DNA of 64,000 bases from an uncultured Mycoplasmatota bacterium (GTDB lineage: Bacteria > Bacillota_I > Bacilli_A > RF39 > UBA660): positions 108,973 through 172,972 of the forward strand of contig UROI01000001.1 of assembly GCA_900549325.1 (NCBI GenBank). Reading direction: 5' to 3'. Made by a program: the position numbers and the translations under genes. The notes beneath the pieces were generated by a model, which saw only the letters and a list, made by a program, of their open reading frames with translations, was not told the DNA's origin and made no database searches. This document shows, in pieces, positions 2,341 to 46,983 of the stretch (its first letter is position 1; every line of letters starts with the position of its first letter).

Positions 2341-3558
2341 TTAGTTCATTTTTATTAGATAATATTTTTTCTTACCTTTTCTTATTATGTGATATTTTCT
2401 AGTATTTGTTATCTTATGATTTTCATCATTTATTATATCACCATCTAATGATATGGCATTATTTGATAGGAATTCTCTTGCTTCTCTTCTTGAAGAGGCG
2501 ATACTATTGTTTACTAATATATTTAGGATTATATCTTCGTCTACATTATATGTTGGTACTCCCTTGAAGGCTAATTCTATTTCGCTATCTGTTAATTCTT
2601 TGATGTTGCCTGTGAATAATGATTCTGATATTTTAACAGCGGTATCAGCATCTTCTTTGCTATGAATATCTTTTACTACTTCATAGGCTAATGTTTTTTG
2701 AGCTAATCTAAGTTCTGGTTTTTCTTCATGTTTTTTCATGATATCTTCGATTTCTTTTTTGGTTAGGAAAGTGAATACTTTTAGGTATTCTAATACTTTG
2801 GAGTCATCAGCATTTATTAGGTACTGATATATTTCATAAGGAGAAGTTTTTTCTTTATCTAGCCATAGAGCATTACCTTCTGATTTTCCGAATTTATGTC
2901 CAGTAGCATCTAAAATAAGTGGCATTGTAAAGCCATAGGCTTCTTTACCTAATTTTTTTCTTATTAGTTCGATACCGGTAGTTATATTTCCCCACTGATC
3001 TGATCCTTCGACTTGCATAATGCAGTTTTTTGTTTCATATAGATGCATAAAGTCATATCCTTGAAGTAACATATAAGAAAATTCTGCATAAGTGATACCA
3101 CTTTCTAGTCTTCTTTGAATGATATCTTTACTTAACATATAATTTATATTTATATATTTTCCGATATCTCTTAGGAATTCTAGGAATGTGTAATCTTTTG
3201 TCCATGAGTAGTTATCTACTAATTCGGCTTTTCCATCAAATAATCTATCTATTTGATTTTTGATACTTTTGATGTTTTTATCTACTGTTTCATAAGATAG
3301 TATTTCTCTTTCGGCAGTTGGTCTTGGATCACCGATTCTTCCTGTTGCACCACCACATAATAGTATTGGATGGTGGCCGTATTTGGCTAATCTTTTAGCG
3401 GTTACTAATGAAGAATAGTGGCCGATATGCAAGCTATCAGCAGTTGGATCTGTACCCCAATAGAATGTTATTGGTTCTCCGTTTAATACTTCTTCAAGAT
3501 TATCTCCTGCTACATCTTTTATTAGTCCTCTCCAGACTAAATCATCATATAATTTCAT
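2341..3558 (-). CDS. tyrS: Tyrosyl-tRNA synthetase
   Basis: HIGH motif (SLHIGHYSSL), KMSKS-type KFGKS, and a C-terminal S4-like domain. It is preceded by a Tyr-specific T-box leader. Confidence 0.95.
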   Translation of the reverse strand: MKLYDDLVWRGLIKDVAGDNLEEVLNGEPITFYWGTDPTADSLHIGHYSSLVTAKRLAKYGHHPILLCGGATGRIGDPRPTAEREILSYETVDKNIKSIKNQIDRLFDGKAELVDNYSWTKDYTFLEFLRDIGKYININYMLSKDIIQRRLESGITYAEFSYMLLQGYDFMHLYETKNCIMQVEGSDQWGNITTGIELIRKKLGKEAYGFTMPLILDATGHKFGKSEGNALWLDKEKTSPYEIYQYLINADDSKVLEYLKVFTFLTKKEIEDIMKKHEEKPELRLAQKTLAYEVVKDIHSKEDADTAVKISESLFTGNIKELTDSEIELAFKGVPTYNVDEDIILNILVNNSIASSRREAREFLSNNAISLDGDIINDENHKITNTRKYHIIRKGKKKYYLIKMN

Positions 3559-3578: not shown

Positions 3579-3785
3579 TAAAAAAAGATGGTATCAAAAG
3601 GACGAACTAGTCGTGGTACCACCTTTATTTACAATATAATTATTGCCTTGATATGATAACGGTATTTACCGATTAAACTCTTAATATGTAATTTCGTTAT
3701 TTTACTTTGTTAATTTCCACCTAACATTAACTCTCTATATGGTAAGTAAAATAATTACTTGGTATTAGTCGTTGTTTAATAATAT
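3579..3785 (-). promoter_or_regulatory. T-box riboswitch leader, tyrosine specifier (UAC)
   Basis: The reverse strand reads AGAGAG box, GGTGGAAA, specifier UAC-A (3688-3690) and F-box CCGTTA. The T-box sequence is AAATAAAGGTGGTACCACG (3612-3630). The terminator is GGTGGTACC...GATACCATC followed by TTTTTTT. Confidence 0.88.
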
Positions 3786-3820: not shown

Positions 3821-3855
3821 TATTAATTTGTGAAAAAGTTTTTTTATTGTTGTTT

Positions 3856-3930
3856 CACTTTAAGCCAAGGTCTTAAAGTGTTTATTTGAGCCAAGATATT
3901 GTCTCAAATAAAGGGCTATTATATATAAGC
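3856..3930 (-). repeat. Tandem-hairpin intergenic repeat, locus A (head box + 2 hairpins, forward orientation on minus strand)
   Basis: Hairpin 1 is CACTTTAAG-CCAAGGT-CTTAAAGTG (3856-3880). Hairpin 2 is TATTTGAG-CCAAGATATTGT-CTCAAATA (3883-3910). The head box is CTATTATATATAAGC (3916-3930), the reverse complement of GCTTATATATAATAG. Confidence 0.75.
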
Positions 3931-4021
3931 AGGAAATATATATTTAGATATTATTTGGTATTATTAATTTACTTTTCTATATTTTTATTATATAATATTT
4001 AGAGAAATGAGGGATTATTCT

Positions 4022-5080
4022 ATGATAGATAGATTAGAAGCTACATTAAAAAGATATAATGAGATAGGGGAAGAGTTATCTAGTCCTGAGATTATATCTG
4101 ATATTAAGAAAATGACTCTTCTTTCTAAAGAGAGAACTAGTTTAGAGAAGACAGTAGAAGTTTATAAAGAGTATAAGAAGGTATTATCTGATATTGAAGA
4201 GGCTAAAGAATTACTTAGTGATAAGGATATGGCTGCATTTGCTAAAGAAGAACTTGCTGAAGCAGAAAGCAAGAAAAGTAAATTAGAAAGTGAACTTGAA
4301 ATTCTTCTTATACCACACGACCCTAACGATGAAAAGAATGTTATTGTGGAAATTAGAGGGGCTGCTGGGGGAGATGAAGGTAATATCTTTGCGGGTGATT
4401 TATTTGATATGTATAGTAAATATGCTGCGAATAATGGGTGGAAGATAGAGATACTTAATGCTACTGCTGGTACCGCTGGTGGATATTCACAAATAGAGTT
4501 TATGGTTAAGGGTGATAGTGTTTATTCTAAACTTAAGTATGAAAGTGGTGCTCATAGAGTACAGAGAGTACCTGCTACTGAGAGTCAGGGTAGAGTACAT
4601 ACTAGTACTGCTACTGTACTTGTTATGCCTGAAGCTGAAGAGTTTGATTTTGAACTTGATGAGTCTGAAGTTAGAATTGATATAACTAGAAGTAGTGGAT
4701 GTGGTGGACAAGGTGTTAATACTACGGATAGTGCTGTTAGACTTACACATATTCCTACTGGTATTATTGTTTATTCTCAGACTGAAAGAAGTCAGATTAA
4801 GAATAAAGAACTTGCTTTTAAAATACTTAAAACTAGGCTATATGATATGAAACTTAAAGAACAAGAAGAAAAGAATGCTGCTGATAGAAAAGTTAAGATT
4901 GGTACTGGAGATAGAAGCGAGAAAATAAGAACCTATAATTATCCACAGAATAGAATTACTGATCATAGAATTGGTTATACTTCAATGAATCTTGATAGAG
5001 TTATGGATGGCGATATGGAAGATTTAATTGAGGCTTTAATTAATGAGGATCAAAAAAAGAAATTAGAGGGTAGTATCTAA
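4022..5080 (+). CDS. prfA: Peptide chain release factor 1
   Basis: RF1 PAT tripeptide (VQRVPATESQGRVHTS) and GGQ motif (SGCGGQGVNTT). The start was moved to ATG 4022 behind GAGGGA. Confidence 0.95.
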   Translation: MIDRLEATLKRYNEIGEELSSPEIISDIKKMTLLSKERTSLEKTVEVYKEYKKVLSDIEEAKELLSDKDMAAFAKEELAEAESKKSKLESELEILLIPHDPNDEKNVIVEIRGAAGGDEGNIFAGDLFDMYSKYAANNGWKIEILNATAGTAGGYSQIEFMVKGDSVYSKLKYESGAHRVQRVPATESQGRVHTSTATVLVMPEAEEFDFELDESEVRIDITRSSGCGGQGVNTTDSAVRLTHIPTGIIVYSQTERSQIKNKELAFKILKTRLYDMKLKEQEEKNAADRKVKIGTGDRSEKIRTYNYPQNRITDHRIGYTSMNLDRVMDGDMEDLIEALINEDQKKKLEGSI

Positions 5081-11675: not shown

Positions 11676-11688
11676 TTCTTTTTTATTA

Positions 11689-11866
11689 CCTCTTAAGCCA
11701 AGGTCTTAAGAGGCACAATAGAGCCTAGTGTCTCTATTGTGAAGAATTTATGTATTAAATTAATTCCTGGTATATAGATTATGCTTCTATATGATAGATT
11801 TTATTTTAAGACTTAGAATAAGGCTTAAAATAACAGTGAGAGACTTACATAGTAAGGCTCAAACTG
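11689..11866. repeat. Tandem-hairpin intergenic repeat, locus B (composite: two units head-to-head, 4 hairpins)
   Basis: The left unit is in reverse orientation: CCTCTTAAG-CCAAGGT-CTTAAGAGG (11689-11713) and CACAATAGAG-CCTAGTGT-CTCTATTGTG (11714-11741). The right unit is forward, with head GCTTCTATATGATAG (11783-11797). Its hairpins are ATTTTAAG-ACTTAGAATAAGG-CTTAAAAT (11803-11831) and the imperfect CAGTGAGAG-ACTTACATAGTAAGG-CTCAAACTG (11834-11866). Confidence 0.75.
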
Positions 11867-11922
11867 AATATAAAGAATAAAATATATTGTTAGTACATAG
11901 AATTATGTGGAGGAATAATTCT

Positions 11923-23244: not shown

Positions 23245-23299
23245 TTTTCTCACCAAATTAATTGTATCATAATATATTTAAAAAAGCAAATAATGTTTT

Positions 23300-23321
23300 T
23301 ATGGAGACTTAAGGCTCCATA
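23300..23321 (+). repeat. Tandem-hairpin repeat family, solo hairpin (locus G)
   Basis: TATGGAG-ACTTAAGG-CTCCATA carries the family core GAG-A...G-CTC. Confidence 0.6.
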
Positions 23322-23363
23322 AAACGGCGAACAACTTTAGTGTGAGACGAAAAGAAAAAAGAC

Positions 23364-27469: not shown

Positions 27470-27506
27470 ATTATATCATTTATTTACTAAAATTAATAGA
27501 TAAAAA
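27470..27506 (-). promoter_or_regulatory. Duplicated 37-bp promoter block, copy 1 (drives 27001-27453)
   Basis: It is identical to 28219-28255. The reverse strand ends in AAATGATATAAT, an extended -10 (TGnTATAAT). Confidence 0.5.
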
Positions 27507-27534
27507 ATGAATAACGACAAAAGCATTATTCATT
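27501..27534 (-). terminator. Intrinsic terminator of the 27562-28197 gene
   Basis: The reverse strand reads AATGAATAA-11 nt-TTATTCATT followed by TTTTT. Confidence 0.65.
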
Positions 27535-27561
27535 TTTATTTAATGTTTATTTATTATGCTG

Positions 27562-28197
27562 CTATGCTGCAAGTTTTTCAACAAGTTTTGGCGTTGAAAA
27601 AGAATTATTAGAATATTCTATTTCGAACGTTGCTTTAGGATAGCCAGATTCTTCATTAGAACACTGTAATCCACATTCTTTACCATCTATAACTATTTTG
27701 TTATTGTTAATAGTATAAGATTTTGCCCAATATCCTTCGAGTGTTTCAGGTGTTAAATTCATTATGATGGAGTTACTTGATAAACTATATATTGCAAACT
27801 GTGTTCCGCTAGTGTCACCAGATAATACAATAACATTATTATCATATATTGTGTATGAATTTATCCATATGCCCTTAAATTCCTCTTTTGCCTCTTTACT
27901 ATTAATTGTAAAACTTTTTGTAGTACACATAGAATCGTTATTTTCCTGCTCTAATTTGATTGTAATTCCATTGAATGTGATTTCGCTGTTTTTACATCCA
28001 TCAGCATTTACTGTTTTAACAGGAATTGTATTATTCCCATTTATATTTTCATTGTTATTGTTGTTTTGATTATTGTTTGAAGTGTTATTTTTAAAACTTA
28101 TGGTTCCTGTTGCAAATAGTATGCATAATGTAGCTAATATAAATATAATTACTAATAATAATGCAATAACAGTTTTATTATTGTTTTGTTTTTCCAC
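27562..28197 (-). CDS. Membrane-anchored/secreted hypothetical protein with poly-Asn linker
   Basis: It has a GTG start behind AAGGAGG and an N-terminal TM (VIALLLVIIFILATLCILF). An N-rich tract NNNQNNNNNENINGNN follows, then a Cys-containing globular domain. Confidence 0.6.
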   Translation of the reverse strand: MEKQNNNKTVIALLLVIIFILATLCILFATGTISFKNNTSNNNQNNNNNENINGNNTIPVKTVNADGCKNSEITFNGITIKLEQENNDSMCTTKSFTINSKEAKEEFKGIWINSYTIYDNNVIVLSGDTSGTQFAIYSLSSNSIIMNLTPETLEGYWAKSYTINNNKIVIDGKECGLQCSNEESGYPKATFEIEYSNNSFSTPKLVEKLAA

Positions 28198-28218
28198 TTT
28201 TTCTCCTCCTTCTATAAA

Positions 28219-28255
28219 ATTATATCATTTATTTACTAAAATTAATAGATAAAAA
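28219..28255 (-). promoter_or_regulatory. Duplicated 37-bp promoter block, copy 2 (drives 27562-28197)
   Basis: The same 37 nt, ATTATATCATTTATTTACTAAAATTAATAGATAAAAA, as at 27470-27506. Confidence 0.5.
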
Positions 28256-28272
28256 TTAAATATATATTTACG

Positions 28273-28355
28273 GCTTATATATGATAGATATGTAGATATA
28301 TTATTTTGAGACCTTGGGCTCAAAATAACACATTAAGACTATTAGGCTTAATGTG
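28273..28355 (+). repeat. Tandem-hairpin intergenic repeat, locus C (head box + 2 hairpins)
   Basis: The head is GCTTATATATGATAG (28273-28287). The hairpins are ATTTTGAG-ACCTTGGG-CTCAAAAT (28303-28326) and CACATTAAG-ACTATTAGG-CTTAATGTG (28329-28355). Confidence 0.8.
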
Positions 28356-28360
28356 AATAT

Positions 28361-28390
28361 AAAAAAATCTAGACTACATAGTAATCTAGA
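28361..28390 (-). terminator. Intrinsic terminator of hsp20
   Basis: TCTAGA..TCTAGA hairpin (28368-28390), followed on the reverse strand by TTTTTTT. Confidence 0.65.
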
Positions 28391-28394
28391 ATAA

Positions 28395-28778
28395 TTATTT
28401 AATTATAATATTTTGTTTTTCATTTTTTAAAATATCTTCTTTGGGAAAAGTTATAGTAAGGATACCACTTTCATAATTAGCTTTAATATCTGATTCCTTC
28501 TTTTCACCAATATAAAAACTTCTTTTTACTTCACCATAAAATCTTTCTCTTCTTATATAAGCCTCTACTTTTAAATTAACTGTTTTGGTAGCCTTAATAG
28601 TTAAATATCCATTTTCATAGTTTATTATTATATCTTCTTTTTTTAATCCTGGTAAATCTATTTCCATAATATATTTATTTTGATATTCTCTTATATCTGT
28701 TTTCATATATTCTTTTTCTTTTAGTAATGGTGAATCTATAAGTGGAAAATAGTCATTTAAATAATATCTTGGTAACAT
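28395..28778 (-). CDS. Hsp20/alpha-crystallin small heat-shock protein
   Basis: MKTDIREYQNKYIMEIDLPGLKKEDIIINYENGYLTIKA ... GILTITFPK. Confidence 0.9.
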   Translation of the reverse strand: MLPRYYLNDYFPLIDSPLLKEKEYMKTDIREYQNKYIMEIDLPGLKKEDIIINYENGYLTIKATKTVNLKVEAYIRRERFYGEVKRSFYIGEKKESDIKANYESGILTITFPKEDILKNEKQNIIIK

Positions 28779-34603: not shown

Positions 34604-34679
34604 GGCCAATTAGCTCAGTCGGTAGAGCACTCGGCTGTTAACCGATAGGTCGTAGGTTCGAGCCCTACATTGGCCGCCA
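34604..34679 (+). tRNA. tRNA-Asn (anticodon GTT), CCA encoded
   Basis: The acceptor stem is GGCCAAT/ATTGGCC, the D arm GCTCAGTCGGTAGAGC, the anticodon loop CTGTTAA, and the T arm GGTTCGAGCCC. The discriminator is G and the 3' end is CCA. Confidence 0.95.
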
Positions 34680-34718: not shown

Positions 34719-34815
34719 AATTTTATATACGACCTATCTTAGATTATCCTTTTATAATTTGATGATTATAGATATATATATTATGACTATCAGTATGATA
34801 AAATAAAAGTGTTTT

Positions 34816-34869
34816 AGTTTTGAGATTACAAGCTCAAAACTATTTGAAAAGACAAAATGGCTTTTCAAA
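34816..34869 (+). repeat. Tandem-hairpin intergenic repeat, locus D (2 hairpins, degenerate head)
   Basis: AGTTTTGAG-ATTACAAG-CTCAAAACT (34816-34841) and TTTGAAAAG-ACAAAATGG-CTTTTCAAA (34843-34869). Upstream TATGATAAAA resembles the head box. Confidence 0.75.
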
Positions 34870-34900
34870 GTAAAATAATAATAAAACTTCAATAAAGATG

Positions 34901-37062: not shown

Positions 37063-37089
37063 TTTTATTTAATATATAATAATGTTGTT

Positions 37090-37215
37090 TGAGAAATATT
37101 ATGCCAAAGACAGTAAGGGCGTTAAGCTTGAAAATCTTACCGAGGAATAAAAAAATAACAAGTCTTTTATCCCTCGCAAGTAGAGGGATTTTATTATGGC
37201 ATAGGAAAGGAATGA
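37090..37215 (+). promoter_or_regulatory. L10 (rplJ) ribosomal-protein leader
   Basis: The closing helix is ATGCC(37101)...GGCAT(37198). The internal sequence is AAGACAGTAAGGGCG...ACCGAGG, and the terminator-like hairpin is CCCTC-gcaagta-GAGGG + TTTT. Position and layout match the Firmicute L10 leader. Confidence 0.6.
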
Positions 37216-37751: not shown

Positions 37752-38117
37752 ATGGCTAAATTAACAAAAGAAGAATTTATAAATTCACTAAATGAAATGT
37801 CTATTCTTGAAATTAAAGAATTAGTAGATGCAATGAAGGAGGCATATGGTGTTGATCCATCAGCAGTTGCTGTTGCAGGACCTGCAGTAGCAGTTGTTGA
37901 AGAAGGACCAAGCAAAGTTAACGTTGTTTTAACTGCTGCTGGTGCTAACAAGATTGCTGTTATTAAATTAGTTAGAGATTTAACTGGTTTAGGATTAAAA
38001 GAAGCTAAAGACATTGCTGATAATGGTGGAAACGTTAAAGAAGGCATCGACAAAGAAGAAGCTGAAAAGATTAAAGCTCAATTTGAAGAAGCTGGAGCTA
38101 CTGTTGAACTTAAGTAG
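37752..38117 (+). CDS. rplL: 50S ribosomal protein L7/L12
   Basis: An Ala/Val-rich hinge and a C-terminal [21 protein letters not shown]...EAGATVELK. Confidence 0.97.
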
Positions 38118-38132
38118 TTTACATTGTATTTT

Positions 38133-38162
38133 AGGAACTATCGAATGATAGTTCCTTTTTTT
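38133..38162 (+). terminator. Intrinsic terminator after rplL
   Basis: AGGAACTATC-gaat-GATAGTTCCT followed by TTTTTT. Confidence 0.85.
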
Positions 38163-38171
38163 AAACATTCA

Positions 38172-38223
38172 AATATGAGACCTTGGGCTTATATTTGCCT
38201 TGCGAGACCTTAGGCTCGGAAGG
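38172..38223 (+). repeat. Tandem-hairpin intergenic repeat, locus E (2 hairpins, no head box)
   Basis: AATATGAG-ACCTTGGG-CTTATATT (38172-38195) has one G-T wobble on this strand. CCTTGCGAG-ACCTTAGG-CTCGGAAGG (38198-38223) has one mismatch. Confidence 0.75.
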
Positions 38224-38283
38224 ATATATAAAAATATTGTAATTTTATAGTTATTTTATTATAATATAGTTAGAAGGTGAGTT

Positions 38284-38877
38284 ATGAGTCAGTATTTTGA
38301 TAATGATAATAATGTTAAACATAATAAAAAAATAATAGAATTTTATTTTAATGATAAAAAATATAATGTATATAGTGATAATGGAGTATTTTCTAAAGAT
38401 AAATTTGATTATGGTACTAGACTATTACTCGATAGTATTGATATATCTAAATTAAGTGGTAATGTTCTTGACTTAGGTTGTGGAATAGGAGTAGTTGGAA
38501 TAATACTTGGTACTATTAATAAAAATATTAATATTGATATGATTGATATTAATGAGAGAGCTTTATCTTTAGTAAGAGATAATTTAACTTTAAATAAGGT
38601 TAAAGCTAATGTTTTTAGTAGTGATGTATACTCTAATGTAAATAAAAAATATGACTATATTATTACTAATCCTCCTATTAGAGCGGGTAAAGAAGTAGTA
38701 AGAAAGTTTTTACTAGGAGGTTTTGACTACTTAAATGATAACGGAATATTATATTTTGTTATGAGAAAAGATCATGGCGTTAAATCGATGATTAAAGAGT
38801 TAGAAAATAAATATAATGTAACTATTGTAAATAAAGATAAAGGATTTTATATTGTATCTTTGACTAAACATCTATAG
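38284..38877 (+). CDS. Class I SAM-dependent methyltransferase (YbxB/RsmC-like)
   Basis: VLDLGCGIGVVG and ITNPPIRAGK motifs. It sits between rplL and rpoB, as B. subtilis ybxB does. Confidence 0.85.
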   Translation: MSQYFDNDNNVKHNKKIIEFYFNDKKYNVYSDNGVFSKDKFDYGTRLLLDSIDISKLSGNVLDLGCGIGVVGIILGTINKNINIDMIDINERALSLVRDNLTLNKVKANVFSSDVYSNVNKKYDYIITNPPIRAGKEVVRKFLLGGFDYLNDNGILYFVMRKDHGVKSMIKELENKYNVTIVNKDKGFYIVSLTKHL

Positions 38878-46307: not shown

Positions 46308-46378
46308 TAAATAAAAAAGAATAGAAGTCGTGTTGATACATGGCTTCTATTTGTTTATAGAAAGAGGTGGAATATTAT

Positions 46379-46753
46379 ATGAATACTAATGAATTAATTA
46401 AGTATATGGCTAATACTTTGAATAGGCTATATATATGTAGAAATAATAGTAGTGGTATGGTTAGAACTAATATATATAATGCTATCTTATATTATAAGAG
46501 AATGTTAATTAAGAATGATTGTATACTGGCTTATACTGATAATGATGATATTAAATTGAGTAATAAGGCTTTATCTGATACTTTGTTTTATATTGCTAGT
46601 GATATTCAATATTTTAATTCGTTATTTAATGATGATGATTTGGTTAATGCTTGGTGGTATGTATGTTTGGCTAAGAATGAGTTAGATATGAATAATAGCA
46701 AGGTTAATGGTACTTCTAGAAAAAAGGTTATGAATAATAAAGTTATAGAATAG
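46379..46753 (+). CDS. Hypothetical protein
   Basis: ATG 46379 follows GAGGTGG, and a hairpin + T7 terminator sits at about 46741-46773. No recognisable motif. Confidence 0.5.
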   Translation: MNTNELIKYMANTLNRLYICRNNSSGMVRTNIYNAILYYKRMLIKNDCILAYTDNDDIKLSNKALSDTLFYIASDIQYFNSLFNDDDLVNAWWYVCLAKNELDMNNSKVNGTSRKKVMNNKVIE

Positions 46754-46780
46754 TTTATTTTATAACTTTTTTTGTTTGTT

Positions 46781-46870
46781 CACTCTAAGCTTGTAATCTT
46801 AGAGTGTTAAATTAAGCCTCTTAAAAAGAGTCTTAATTTAATATGTCAGTAACATCTATTATATATAAGC
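46781..46870 (-). repeat. Tandem-hairpin intergenic repeat, locus F (head box + 2 hairpins, forward orientation on minus strand)
   Basis: CACTCTAAG-CTTGTAAT-CTTAGAGTG (46781-46806). TTAAATTAAG-CCTCTTAAAAAGAGT-CTTAATTTAA (46807-46841). The head is CTATTATATATAAGC (46856-46870), identical to locus A. Confidence 0.8.
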
Positions 46871-46983
46871 ATATTGTGGGTTATTATGATGTTGTTTTGT
46901 TTATTATTTGGTTTATTTTGTTGACTATTTGGTAAAATAATAGTATTATATAGGTGATTTGTTTGAGAAGGAGAACTAAGAAT

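What the first reader, a model, noticed from the sequence alone, without database searches (positions are those of the whole stretch)
28273..28355. Dispersed family of tandem hairpins with covarying stems and an invariant RAG-A...G-CTY core in seven intergenic spacers
Fifteen 22-35 nt hairpins occur at seven loci: 3856-3930, 11689-11866, 23300-23321, 28273-28355, 34816-34869, 38172-38223 and 46781-46870. All follow one plan: variable outer stem, RAG, unpaired A, short inner stem-loop, G, CTY, outer-stem complement. Examples are ATTTTGAG-ACCTTGGG-CTCAAAAT, CACATTAAG-ACTATTAGG-CTTAATGTG, TTTGAAAAG-ACAAAATGG-CTTTTCAAA and TATGGAG-ACTTAAGG-CTCCATA. Related copies differ by paired compensatory changes, for example CACTTTAAG/CTTAAAGTG vs CACATTAAG/CTTAATGTG vs CACTCTAAG/CTTAGAGTG. 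The inner stem also covaries (CC..GG, CT..AG, CA..TG, TT..AA). An A opposite G is kept at the same position in every copy. Hairpins come as direct tandem pairs 0-4 nt apart, in either genomic orientation. They lack the U-tract of intrinsic terminators. Locus A sits between divergent promoters (tyrS / prfA), so terminator function does not explain them. The density of about one locus per 9 kb, including spacers inside the highly conserved ribosomal-protein/rpoBC region, suggests a mobile or recruited structured element. Candidates are a REP/BIME-like or MITE-like element, or a structured RNA module. I cannot match it to a named family.
Basis: partly seen in the sequence, partly recalled or inferred. 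Interest (0 to 1): 0.8.

Follow-up and report, generated by a model that had tools for sequence, protein, structure and literature searches.

The report
New hairpin repeat family in RF39 gut bacteria
The hairpins are real: they belong to a previously undescribed 110-130-base repeat unit (a conserved AT-rich box plus two or three stem-loops) found many times in the spacers between genes of one group of uncultured gut bacteria, resembling the REP and BOX repeats of other bacteria, with its function still unknown.

Summary
All 15 hairpins exist. A simple scan finds 14 perfect-stem hairpins where 0.75 are expected by chance.

They are parts of a longer polar unit of about 110-130 nt:
- an upstream TATATA box, present in about 75% of copies;
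- the motif GCTTMTATATRATAG;
- an optional small hairpin, H0;
- H1, with an AT-rich stem;
- H2, with a CAC...GTG foot;
- an A-rich tail.

A covariance model finds exactly 8 units at the 7 loci. It finds 110 more in relatives, all in one clade of gut MAGs around 'Clostridium sp. CAG:302' (order RF39). It finds none in control loci, and sequence searches found none in phages or plasmids.

Covariation is overwhelming. H1 is 100% paired, and 22 of 25 pairs change on both sides. G-U pairs are almost absent. An A-purine mismatch is kept in every hairpin.

The unit has no terminal inverted repeats, no target-site duplications and no U-tract. Its orientation relative to genes is not fixed. Paralogues are at most 90% identical. 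No Y1 transposase was found in 877 kb.

Orthologous copies persist between close genomes, but whole hairpin arms are swapped.

Verdict: a new clade-specific REP/BOX-like structured intergenic repeat. It is not a classic MITE, a terminator or a known RNA. How it works is inferred, not shown.

The parts
28257..28367 (+). Complete unit (the finding's locus). TATATA box 28261-28266; left motif GCTTATATATGATAG 28273-28287; H0 ATAT-GTAG-ATAT 28288-28299; H1 28301-28328; H2 28329-28355; A-rich tail 28356-28367.
   Evidence: Sequence; pattern hit; covariance model 108.1 bits, E 5.5e-20; RNA fold z -5.0 and DNA fold z -5.9.
46769..46886 (-). Complete unit. Left motif 46856-46870; H0 46843-46855; H1 46807-46841; H2 46781-46806 (inner pair T-A); tail 46769-46780. 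It lacks the upstream TATATA box.
   Evidence: covariance model 91.7 bits.
3844..3946 (-). Complete unit without H0. Left motif 3916-3930; H1 3881-3912; H2 3856-3880; tail 3844-3855. It lies between divergent tyrS and prfA, upstream of the tyrS promoter and T-box leader.
   Evidence: covariance model 88.9 bits; T-box leader.
11767..11878 (+). Complete unit without H0. Left motif GCTTCTATATGATAG 11783-11797; H1 11801-11833; H2 11834-11866, with a purine-rich internal loop in its stem. It was not in the training set of the model.
   Evidence: covariance model 68.8 bits, E 7.9e-12.
11677..11782 (-). Unit with a degenerate left motif, head-to-head with the unit at 11767-11878 and sharing its TATATA box (11771-11777). 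H1 11714-11741; H2 11688-11714. Its tail abuts the stop codon of rpoE (RNA polymerase delta subunit).
   Evidence: covariance model 55.6 bits, E 4.4e-9.
38121..38235 (+). Decayed unit. Hairpin pair 38170-38197 (one G-T pair) and 38198-38223 (one mismatch). No left motif. It sits just after the rplL terminator.
   Evidence: covariance model 45.2 bits; comparison with other strains.
34769..34881 (+). Unit without a recognisable left motif. H1 34815-34842 (inner pair T-A); H2 34843-34869. It lies downstream of a tRNA. A relative with 77% identity carries a full unit in the opposite orientation in the same spacer.
   Evidence: covariance model 45.1 bits; L048 comparison.
23259..23361 (+). Decayed unit. 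Only H1 (23297-23324) is intact. H2 and the left motif are degenerate; the A-rich tail is kept.
   Evidence: covariance model 35.1 bits, E 7.7e-5; the orthologous site in L048 is degenerate.

Best explanation
The hairpins are modules of a clade-specific, non-coding, polar intergenic repeat unit of about 110-130 nt. Its order is a TATATA box, 6 variable nt, GCTTMTATATRATAG, an optional H0, H1, H2, and an A-rich tail. This window holds 8 units in 64 kb; relatives hold many more. The clade is the group of uncultured gut Bacilli around 'Clostridium sp. CAG:302' (order RF39).

In kind it is a REP/BIME- or BOX-like small dispersed repeat, not a MITE, a terminator or a known RNA.

Shown:
- Each stem is kept Watson-Crick while its sequence changes.
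- An A-purine 1x1 mismatch is always kept. It is flanked by a usually G-C pair on the outside and a usually C-G pair on the inside.
- Units sit only in spacers, in either orientation, often starting at or ending a few bases from a stop codon.
- Modules (H0, H1, H2, loops) assort almost freely. Between close genomes they are replaced as whole arms.

Inferred:
- The unit acts when the nucleic acid is single-stranded, either in the untranslated regions of flanking transcripts or in transiently single-stranded or cruciform DNA. In that state it forms a block of tandem stem-loops.
- An unidentified host factor reads the hairpins through the conserved mismatch and its neighbouring pairs.
- The most likely effect, by analogy with REP, is a structural barrier or processing point that protects or separates neighbouring transcripts.
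- The family is now maintained and homogenised mainly by recombination (gene conversion) between copies, plus selection for pairing, rather than by ongoing transposition.
For: - Family and unit: exact motif plus hairpin gives 4 hits against 0 expected in the window. The same pattern gives more than 100 places in the genome collection, about 79 of them in one MAG clade.
- Covariance model R1: exactly 8 hits at the 7 loci, with the next hit at E 0.047. In fetched loci it gives 110 hits, all in the clade, and 0 in 22 control loci.
- Taxon: CAG-302 is placed in order RF39 (PMC7676259).
- Structure: 95.1% of cells paired, 22 of 25 pairs with changes on both sides, score 0.42 against 0.10. RNAalifold finds H1 and H2 independently. 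Within single genomes pairing is 97-99% Watson-Crick.
- Mismatch: A-G or A-A in 61 of 61 H2 hairpins, which were not part of the search pattern.
- Orientation independence: contexts, GC skew 42:29, and G-T 6 against A-C 4.
- Both strands fold well: z -5.0 and -4.3 as RNA, -5.9 as DNA.
- Position next to stop codons.
- Mosaic modules: 23 H1 stems, 24 H2 stems and 47 combinations in 61 units.
- Arm replacement: L014 against L017 shows 6 of 20 stem positions changed, all compensatory, with flanks 97-98% identical. L038 against L058 shows 10 of 20.
- Age: paralogues have a median identity of 74% and a maximum of 90%.
- Novelty: no Rfam match, no phage or plasmid match.
Against: - No transcript data and no partner protein were available, so both the molecule that matters (RNA or DNA) and the effect are unproven.
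- Units in divergent spacers, such as tyrS/prfA (10 of 74), cannot be 3' UTR elements.
- Spacers with units have canonical terminator-like sites about as often as spacers without (32% against 39%). The units therefore do not visibly replace terminators.
- Some copies are decaying (23259, 38121), so not every copy is under selection.
- The left motif's near-invariance between orthologues is partly ascertainment, because the search required it.
- Gene conversion is inferred from clustered, compensatory differences and recurring stem types. No donor copy was identified.
- Only about 640 kb of the clade's genomes was inspected, in blocks chosen because they contain the motif.
Confidence: 0.55

Rival explanations
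1. A non-autonomous single-strand DNA transposon of the IS200/IS605 or REP-RAYT type. H1 and H2 would be the left-end and right-end hairpins recognised by a Y1 HUH transposase supplied in trans. The unit would insert next to a TATATA-like target by 'peel and paste', leaving no inverted repeats and no duplications.
For: - Two hairpins of the same design lie on the same strand with a conserved asymmetric mismatch.
- Conserved sequence lies 5' of the first hairpin, and a tail of about 12-15 nt lies 3' of the second.
- There are no terminal inverted repeats or target-site duplications.
- A conserved box lies at a fixed distance upstream in about 75% of copies.
- Head-to-head dimers share that palindromic box.
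- Orientation is flipped in the same spacer in a relative with 77% identity.
Against: - tblastn with E. coli TnpA-REP (4er8) and IS608 TnpA (2a6m) finds nothing in 877 kb (best E 1.4).
- Genes bracketed by units are housekeeping genes such as rplM-rpsI and sepF.
- There are no near-identical paralogues (maximum 90%).
- Every orthologous site compared among close genomes is occupied.
- Orientation is not tied to the replication strand (42:29).
- The stems, and the 4 nt 5' of each hairpin foot (the 'guide' position in IS608), vary between copies.
Confidence: 0.15
2. A strand-specific RNA element. It would be either a multicopy small RNA transcribed from the TATATA box, starting at the G of GCUU, or a cis-acting UTR module bound by an RNA-binding protein.
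For: - The TATATA box lies at -12 to -7 relative to the G of GCTT, which is the geometry of a -10 element.
- There is very strong covariation.
- Mismatches on the sense strand are purine-purine (18 against 1 pyrimidine-pyrimidine), including tandem G-A loops in some H2 subfamilies.
- Orientation is mildly co-biased with the downstream gene (46:28).
- Bidirectional terminators often follow the tail in convergent contexts.
Against: - There is no -35 enrichment at either candidate -10.
- The best-conserved box position is an A where a -10 element needs a T.
- The box is missing in about 25% of good copies.
- 38-43% of copies are antisense to the adjacent gene.
- G-U pairs are about 0.5% of cells and no commoner than A-C, which is unusual for an RNA-only constraint in a 27% GC genome.
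- No U-tract follows the hairpins.
- There is no Rfam match.
Confidence: 0.12
3. Double-stranded or cruciform DNA sites for a chromosome-organising or topology protein (as proposed for BIME binding by gyrase and IHF), with no role in RNA.
For: - Both strands are equally constrained.
- Orientation is independent of genes and of replication.
- AT-rich flanks favour cruciform extrusion (own knowledge).
- Spacing in the window is regular, about one unit per 8 kb.
Against: - Stem sequences differ between copies, so no sequence-specific double-strand half-site exists.
- The conserved asymmetry (A-purine, never a base pair) has no meaning in B-form duplex DNA.
- 10-bp AT-rich stems are poor cruciforms (own knowledge).
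- Nothing was tested directly.
Confidence: 0.08
4. Unconventional transcription terminators.
For: - Units often begin at the stop codon of the upstream gene or end 1-40 nt from a convergent stop codon.
- The hairpins are stable.
Against: - An A-rich tract, not a U-rich one, follows H2.
- In reverse orientation the T-tract precedes the hairpins.
- Canonical terminators coexist with units after rplL, hsp20 and the ORF at 46367-46753.
- Terminator-like sites are not depleted next to units.
- Units also occur between divergent genes.
Confidence: 0.05

Closest known systems
REP / BIME elements of Enterobacteria and Pseudomonas (RAYT-associated)
   Same: - Short imperfect palindromes confined to spacers, many copies per genome, often just after stop codons.
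- Clustered into composite units with conserved linker motifs.
- Orientation independent of genes.
- Stems kept by compensatory change.
- A conserved irregularity in the hairpin.
   Different: - The conserved bases lie next to the loop, not as a GTAG-type tetranucleotide at the foot.
- The hairpins are direct tandem, not inverted pairs.
- The stems are AT-rich.
- No RAYT was found in 877 kb.
- There is a conserved 15-nt single-stranded-looking left motif and an A-rich tail.
- There is no sequence similarity.
BOX elements of Streptococcus pneumoniae (boxA-boxB(n)-boxC)
   Same: - A modular, polar composite of distinct sub-elements, with optional modules (H0 present or absent).
- About 100-200 nt long and intergenic, with no terminal inverted repeats, no target-site duplications and no own transposase.
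- Predicted to fold stably.
- Clade-specific.
   Different: - The clade and the sequences are unrelated.
- Here the modules are simple hairpins whose stems vary freely under covariation.
- Every hairpin shares an invariant A-purine mismatch core.
- BOX consensus sequences were not at hand, so homology was not tested directly.
IS200/IS605-derived non-autonomous elements (PATE-like) and their TnpA hairpin ends
   Same: - Two subterminal hairpins on the same strand, with a structural irregularity used for strand-specific recognition.
- No terminal inverted repeats or target-site duplications.
- A conserved sequence adjoins the left end.
   Different: - No TnpA was found.
- There is no bias towards the replication strand.
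- Stem and 'guide' positions vary between copies.
- No near-identical copies and no insertion polymorphism were seen.
Stem-loop-containing repeat families and MITE-like small mobile sequences in general (PMC2267715, PMC2229807, PMC10969869; titles and abstracts seen)
   Same: It belongs to this broad category of structured intergenic repeats found family by family in many bacteria.
   Different: - It fails the MITE criteria of terminal inverted repeats and target-site duplications.
- None of these papers was read in full, and none is known to cover RF39.
Integron attC sites
   Same: Recognition would be by hairpin structure and unpaired bases rather than by stem sequence. Sequences are highly variable while the fold is conserved.
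   Different: - The hairpins are much shorter.
- There are no R/L box consensus sequences.
- They are not at cassette boundaries, and no integrase context is present.
- This is a resemblance only.

Membership tests
REP/BIME (RAYT-associated) | Short (20-40 nt) imperfect palindromes, extragenic, many copies | tested here: met
   Hairpins of 25-35 nt. All 8 window units lie in spacers. 110 further covariance-model hits in clade loci.
REP/BIME (RAYT-associated) | Conserved GTAG-type tetranucleotide at the 5' foot of the palindrome (own knowledge of the family) | tested here: not met
   Foot sequences vary (TTAT..., CAT..., CAC...). The conserved bases are AG-A-C / G-R-CT next to the loop. GTAG appears only as one of several H0 loop variants.
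REP/BIME (RAYT-associated) | REPs arranged in inverted pairs (BIME/REPIN) | tested here: not met
   H1 and H2 are direct repeats 0-1 nt apart in all units. Whole units form head-to-head dimers in at least 6 places, but their arms are not alike.
REP/BIME (RAYT-associated) | A RAYT (Y1 HUH transposase) gene in the genome, flanked by the repeats | tested here: inconclusive
   tblastn with 4er8 and 2a6m sequences finds no hit better than E 1.4 in 877 kb. No whole genome could be scanned.
MITE | Terminal inverted repeats | tested here: not met
   Longest match between the left end and the reverse complement of the right end averages 5.46 nt, against 5.70 in the direct control.
MITE | Target-site duplications | tested here: not met
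   Longest direct repeat between a unit's own flanks averages 6.57 nt, against 6.42 for swapped flanks.
MITE | Near-identical copies and presence/absence polymorphism | tested here: not met
   Maximum paralogue identity is 90% and the median is 74%. All orthologous spacers compared among genomes with 92-98% identical flanks are occupied. Differences appear only against a relative with 77% identity.
IS200/IS605-derived element | Hairpins at both ends on one strand, without terminal inverted repeats or target-site duplications | tested here: met
   H1 and H2 are direct. No inverted repeats or duplications.
IS200/IS605-derived element | Orientation tied to the replication strand, and a TnpA gene in the genome | tested here: not met
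   GC-skew orientation is 42:29. No TnpA in 877 kb (the genome sample is incomplete).
Intrinsic terminator | Hairpin followed by a U-tract, oriented with the upstream gene | tested here: not met
   The tail is 70-85% A at most of its first 12 positions. 21 of 57 units in tandem contexts are antisense.
Known structured RNA (any Rfam family) | Match to a curated covariance model | tested here: not met
   The only hits at gathering threshold in the window are a tRNA and the L10 leader. The permissive scan of 28230-28400 gives a best E of 0.52.
Pneumococcal BOX element | Sequence homology to boxA, boxB or boxC | not tested
The full unit was found only in the RF39 clade.

The most novel reading that the evidence does not exclude
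The hairpins are substrates of an undiscovered structure-specific enzyme in RF39 bacteria, acting on single-stranded DNA or RNA. It would recognise the A-purine mismatch next to the loop and exchange or regenerate whole hairpin cassettes among the many loci in a genome. That would be a new type of hairpin-cassette mobility or conversion that needs no inverted repeats, no duplications and no Y1 transposase. A related reading is a dedicated 'punctuation' system that sets the transcript ends of neighbouring genes in these reduced genomes.
Probability: 0.12. Interest if true: 0.75.

Novelty: new member of a known kind. Interest (0 to 1): 0.48.

Why it matters
RF39 bacteria are common, uncultured, reduced-genome members of the human gut. 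Almost nothing is known about their non-coding DNA.

This family has about one unit per 8 kb in this window. It gives three things:
- A clean, covariation-backed structural motif with an invariant purine-purine mismatch. This is a concrete handle for finding the protein that reads it.
- A case where whole hairpin arms are swapped between otherwise 97-98% identical genomes. This bears on how REP-like repeats are maintained without a visible transposase.
- A practical marker and an assembly hazard for this clade.

It does not overturn anything. Clade-specific hairpin repeats are a known phenomenon.

Tried and rejected
- **Sigma-70 promoter inside the unit.** There is no -35 enrichment 16-18 bp upstream of either the TATATA box or the internal TATAAT (mean best match 2.7-2.9 of 6, the same as at control positions).
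- **Fixed coupling to a downstream promoter.** Only 12 of 61 units have TTGACW 18-59 nt after H2.
- **Long-range pairing of the left motif or TATATA box with H0 or the tail.** RNAalifold predicts none. Column 5 does not covary with columns 34 or 46. The long 5' helix in the single-sequence fold is AT-repeat pairing.
- **Leader peptide.** ATG-GCT-TAT-ATA-TAA would encode MAYI followed by a stop, but at most about 46% of copies can carry the ATG, and no Shine-Dalgarno sequence is visible.
- **Wobble test for the transcribed strand.** G-T 6 against A-C 4, which is uninformative. An earlier count was biased by my own finder and was discarded.
- **Replication-strand bias.** 42:29.
- **Terminal inverted repeats and target-site duplications.** Absent.
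- **RAYT or IS200 transposase.** None found. Genes between paired units are housekeeping genes.
- **Terminator replacement.** Terminator-like sites occur at 32% of gene ends with a unit and 39% without (the detector is crude).
- **Phage or plasmid origin.** No hits.
- **Literature.** There is no paper with the motif string. Searches combining RF39 with repeat and hairpin terms, and REP with RAYT and Firmicutes, found nothing relevant.
- **Strain series for the rpoE locus.** Too few contigs were returned.
Full report

Yes. The seven loci read as described. I scanned mechanically for an AGA...GCT core flanked by seven complementary bases. This gives 14 perfect sites in the window. First-order Markov shuffles give a mean of 0.75 and a maximum of 3.

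Thirteen of the 14 are the reported intergenic hairpins. Two more reported hairpins, 11834-11866 and 38198-38223, have one or two stem irregularities. The hairpins are direct tandem pairs 0-1 nt apart. They occur on either strand, and no T-tract follows them.

Locus A lies between tyrS (2341-3558, minus strand) and prfA (4007-5080, plus strand). The window is 24-34% GC.

**2.

Four loci share an exact 15-nt motif, GCTTMTATATRATAG, 5-30 nt upstream of the first hairpin and on the hairpins' own strand. That is 4 hits against 0 expected.

I searched one genome per species with that motif plus one hairpin core. About 79 of them fall in one set of human-gut MAGs:
- 'Clostridium sp. CAG:302';
- several 'uncultured Bacilli bacterium' and 'uncultured Tenericutes' bins;
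- 'Firmicutes bacterium CAG:321';
- the 1.46-Mb chromosome CP091726.1.

The remaining hits, in Cytobacillus, Arenibacter, Saprospiraceae and others, are chance matches with no hairpins. CAG-302 is placed in order RF39 (PMC7676259). The window itself is 94-96% identical to two of these MAGs.

Lining up the copies shows a polar unit:
- A TATATA box at -12 to -7 from the G of GCTT, present in about three quarters of copies.
- Six variable bases.
- GCTTMTATATRATAG(R)T.
- An optional small hairpin, H0. Examples are ATAT-GTAG-ATAT, GTATC-TTG-GATAC and ATGC-ACTG-GCAT.
- H1, with an AT-rich stem of 9-10 bp.
- One base, usually A.
- H2, with foot CAC...GTG.
- An A-rich tail of about 12-15 nt.

I built covariance model R1 from 61 units. 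With filters off, it finds exactly eight units on the seven loci of the window. Scores run from 108 to 35 bits, and E-values from 5.5e-20 to 7.7e-5. The next hit other than opposite-strand echoes of the units is at E 0.047.

The loci that lack the exact motif are degenerate copies of the same unit (11677-11782, 23259-23361, 34769-34881, 38121-38235). In 100 fetched loci, R1 finds 110 units. All are in the clade, and none is in the 22 chance-hit control loci.

**3. Structure.**

I counted pairs for the structure I specified on the MAFFT alignment:
- 95.1% of 1461 cells form standard pairs, against 77.3% in shuffles.
- 22 of 25 pairs change on both sides.
- The covariation score is 0.42, against 0.10 in shuffles (0 of 500 reach it) and at most 0.084 when partners are slid by 1-3 columns.
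- H1 is 100% paired in 61 sequences, and H0 is 98% paired.
- H2 scores 89%. The shortfall comes from a subfamily with a one-base bulge that MAFFT shifts.

RNAalifold predicts H1 and H2 without guidance. The signal is not an artefact of including orthologues. Within each of four genomes, paralogues alone are 97-99% Watson-Crick, and 11-17 of 25 pairs vary on both sides.

Three details matter:
- **G-U pairs are almost absent.** They make up about 0.5% of cells. In a scan that does not favour them, G-T (6) is no commoner than A-C (4). Both strands are therefore equally constrained.
- **Every hairpin keeps a 1x1 purine-purine mismatch.** It lies between a usually G-C pair on the outside and a usually C-G pair on the inside. 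In H2, which was not part of the search pattern, it is A-G in 43 units and A-A in 18 of 61. It is never a base pair. Both neighbouring pairs can themselves covary, to T-A.
- **The segment inside the C-G pair is free.** It ranges from tetraloops to extra helices of 3-5 bp.

The unit folds far better than shuffles. On the plus strand z is -5.0 as RNA and -5.9 as DNA. On the minus strand z is -4.3 as RNA.

**4. Context.**

Units lie in spacers. Relative to the unit, the flanking genes fall into four classes:
- co-oriented tandem, 36;
- antisense tandem, 21;
- divergent, 10;
- convergent, 7.

Orientation relative to local GC skew is 42:29.

In the forward tandem context the unit often begins at the upstream stop codon. 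The TAR at -16 to -14 is the stop codon itself in several cases. In the reverse context the tail ends 1-48 nt from a stop codon.

Canonical terminators coexist with units after rplL, hsp20 and the ORF at 46367-46753. Terminator-like sites are not depleted next to units (32% against 39%, crude detector).

Genes bracketed by pairs of units are ordinary: rplM-rpsI, sepF, a deacetylase and a glycosyltransferase. Head-to-head dimers that share or abut the palindromic TATATA box recur at least six times.

**5. Evolution.**

Paralogues within a genome have a median identity of 74% and a maximum of 90%. There is no sign of a recent burst.

Modules assort almost freely. There are 19 H0 variants, 23 H1 stems and 24 H2 stems, giving 47 H1-H2 combinations in 61 units. 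The same stem occurs with different loops.

Among genomes whose flanks are 92-98% identical, every orthologous spacer found carries the unit in the same orientation. The differences are clustered:
- Loops differ at 13-14% of positions.
- Stems are either identical or replaced as whole arms, with both sides changed together.
- L014 against L017: H1 TATTTTTAG/CTAAAAATA becomes TAGATTAAG/CTTAATCTA.
- L038 against L058: 10 of 20 stem positions differ.
- L101 against the window: H2 CACTTAAGG/CCTTAAGTG against CACTTTAAG/CTTAAAGTG.

Ten strains with an identical Hsp20 carry three haplotypes of the unit at 28273. They differ at the mismatch base (G to A in both hairpins) and in the loops. One H1 loop changes from CTTG to TAAA. 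The stems are unchanged.

One relative has 77% identity. There one locus is degenerate and one region is absent. The spacer after the tRNA carries a full unit in the opposite orientation.

Some window copies are visibly decaying (23259, 38121).

**6. What it is not.**

- Not a known RNA: no Rfam family matches.
- Not a terminator: an A-rich tail follows the hairpins and orientation is mixed.
- Not a classic MITE: no terminal inverted repeats and no target-site duplications.
- Not phage- or plasmid-borne.
- Not shown to be RAYT- or IS200-dependent: tblastn with the 4er8 and 2a6m proteins, whose sequences I verified against the PDB, finds nothing in 877 kb.
- No canonical promoter: there is no -35 enrichment.

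**7. Best explanation.**

This is a new, clade-specific member of the broad class of structured intergenic repeats such as REP/BIME, BOX and other stem-loop families. The pairing, the invariant asymmetric mismatch and the polar unit are shown.

The following is inferred:
- The unit works as a block of stem-loops when single-stranded, in transcripts or in DNA.
- A host factor reads the mismatch core.
- The effect is REP-like protection or separation of neighbouring transcripts.
- The copies are kept alike by gene conversion plus selection, not by current transposition.

Two observations argue for a role that does not depend on which strand is read: both strands are equally constrained, and orientation is close to random. 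One observation argues that something still distinguishes the strands: the mismatch is never repaired. I cannot reconcile these without experiments, and this is the main open point.

The rivals are kept at lower probability, with the results that would decide between them:
- an HUH-type single-strand transposon;
- a strand-specific RNA;
- a DNA-topology site;
- an odd terminator.

**8. Limits.**

- The clade sequence inspected (about 640 kb) consists of 8-kb blocks chosen because they contain the motif. Copy number per genome, the share of motif-less units and the absence of a transposase are therefore not established.
- The left motif's invariance between orthologues is partly ascertainment.
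- Gene calls in the loci are my own simple ORF calls.
- What I state about REP, RAYT, IS608, BOX and attC is from my own knowledge unless a call is cited.

Noticed in passing
window 27470-28262: A 749-bp segment is present in this window and in 1 of 10 other strains that encode an identical Hsp20, and absent from the other 9. It carries a 211-aa ORF (27562-28197, minus strand, no Pfam or NCBIfam family) and one copy of a 44-nt direct repeat (27470-27513 and 28219-28262, 95% identical). The repeat is a promoter region with an extended -10 element (TGATATAAT). The upper repeat copy abuts the left edge of the hairpin unit.
   Followed up: partly
window 3595-3781 (minus strand): The tyrS gene has a T-box leader that scores 82.4 bits. 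This is below Rfam's gathering score of 93, but E is 1.3e-18, so the default Rfam scan missed it. The hairpin unit at 3844-3946 lies upstream of its TTGACA/TACAAT promoter.
   Followed up: yes
window 11677-11878; also L024, L034, L036, L094, L100: Units form head-to-head dimers that share or abut the palindromic TATATA box. The two arms of a dimer carry different hairpin variants, so they are not simple inverted duplications.
   Followed up: partly
L114 849-1060, compared with window 38100-38300: A strain with an identical L7/L12 protein has a different 176-aa gene starting 24 nt after rplL. It lacks both the rplL terminator and the hairpin pair found in the window.
   Followed up: no
L001-L010 3380-3600, equivalent to window 28200-28400: Between-strain variation in the unit is concentrated at the mismatch base and in the loops. 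The mismatch base changes from G to A in both hairpins of most strains, which is C to T on the other strand. The stems and flanks barely vary. This pattern would fit deamination of unpaired cytosines in extruded hairpins, but that idea was not tested.
   Followed up: partly
several H2 hairpins, e.g. L037, L054, L055, L098, L099, L043; window 11834-11866: A subfamily of H2 carries a symmetric purine-rich internal loop in mid-stem, in addition to the core mismatch. Examples are CACTGGAAG/CTGAAAGTG and CAGTGAAAG/CTTGAACTG, which would form tandem G-A/A-G pairs. It is retained at the orthologous site downstream of rpsI in two genomes whose flanks are only 76-89% identical.
   Followed up: partly
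window 37086-37203 and 34604-34676: A ribosomal protein L10 leader (61.3 bits) and a tRNA (71.7 bits) are the only Rfam hits in the window at gathering threshold.
   Followed up: no
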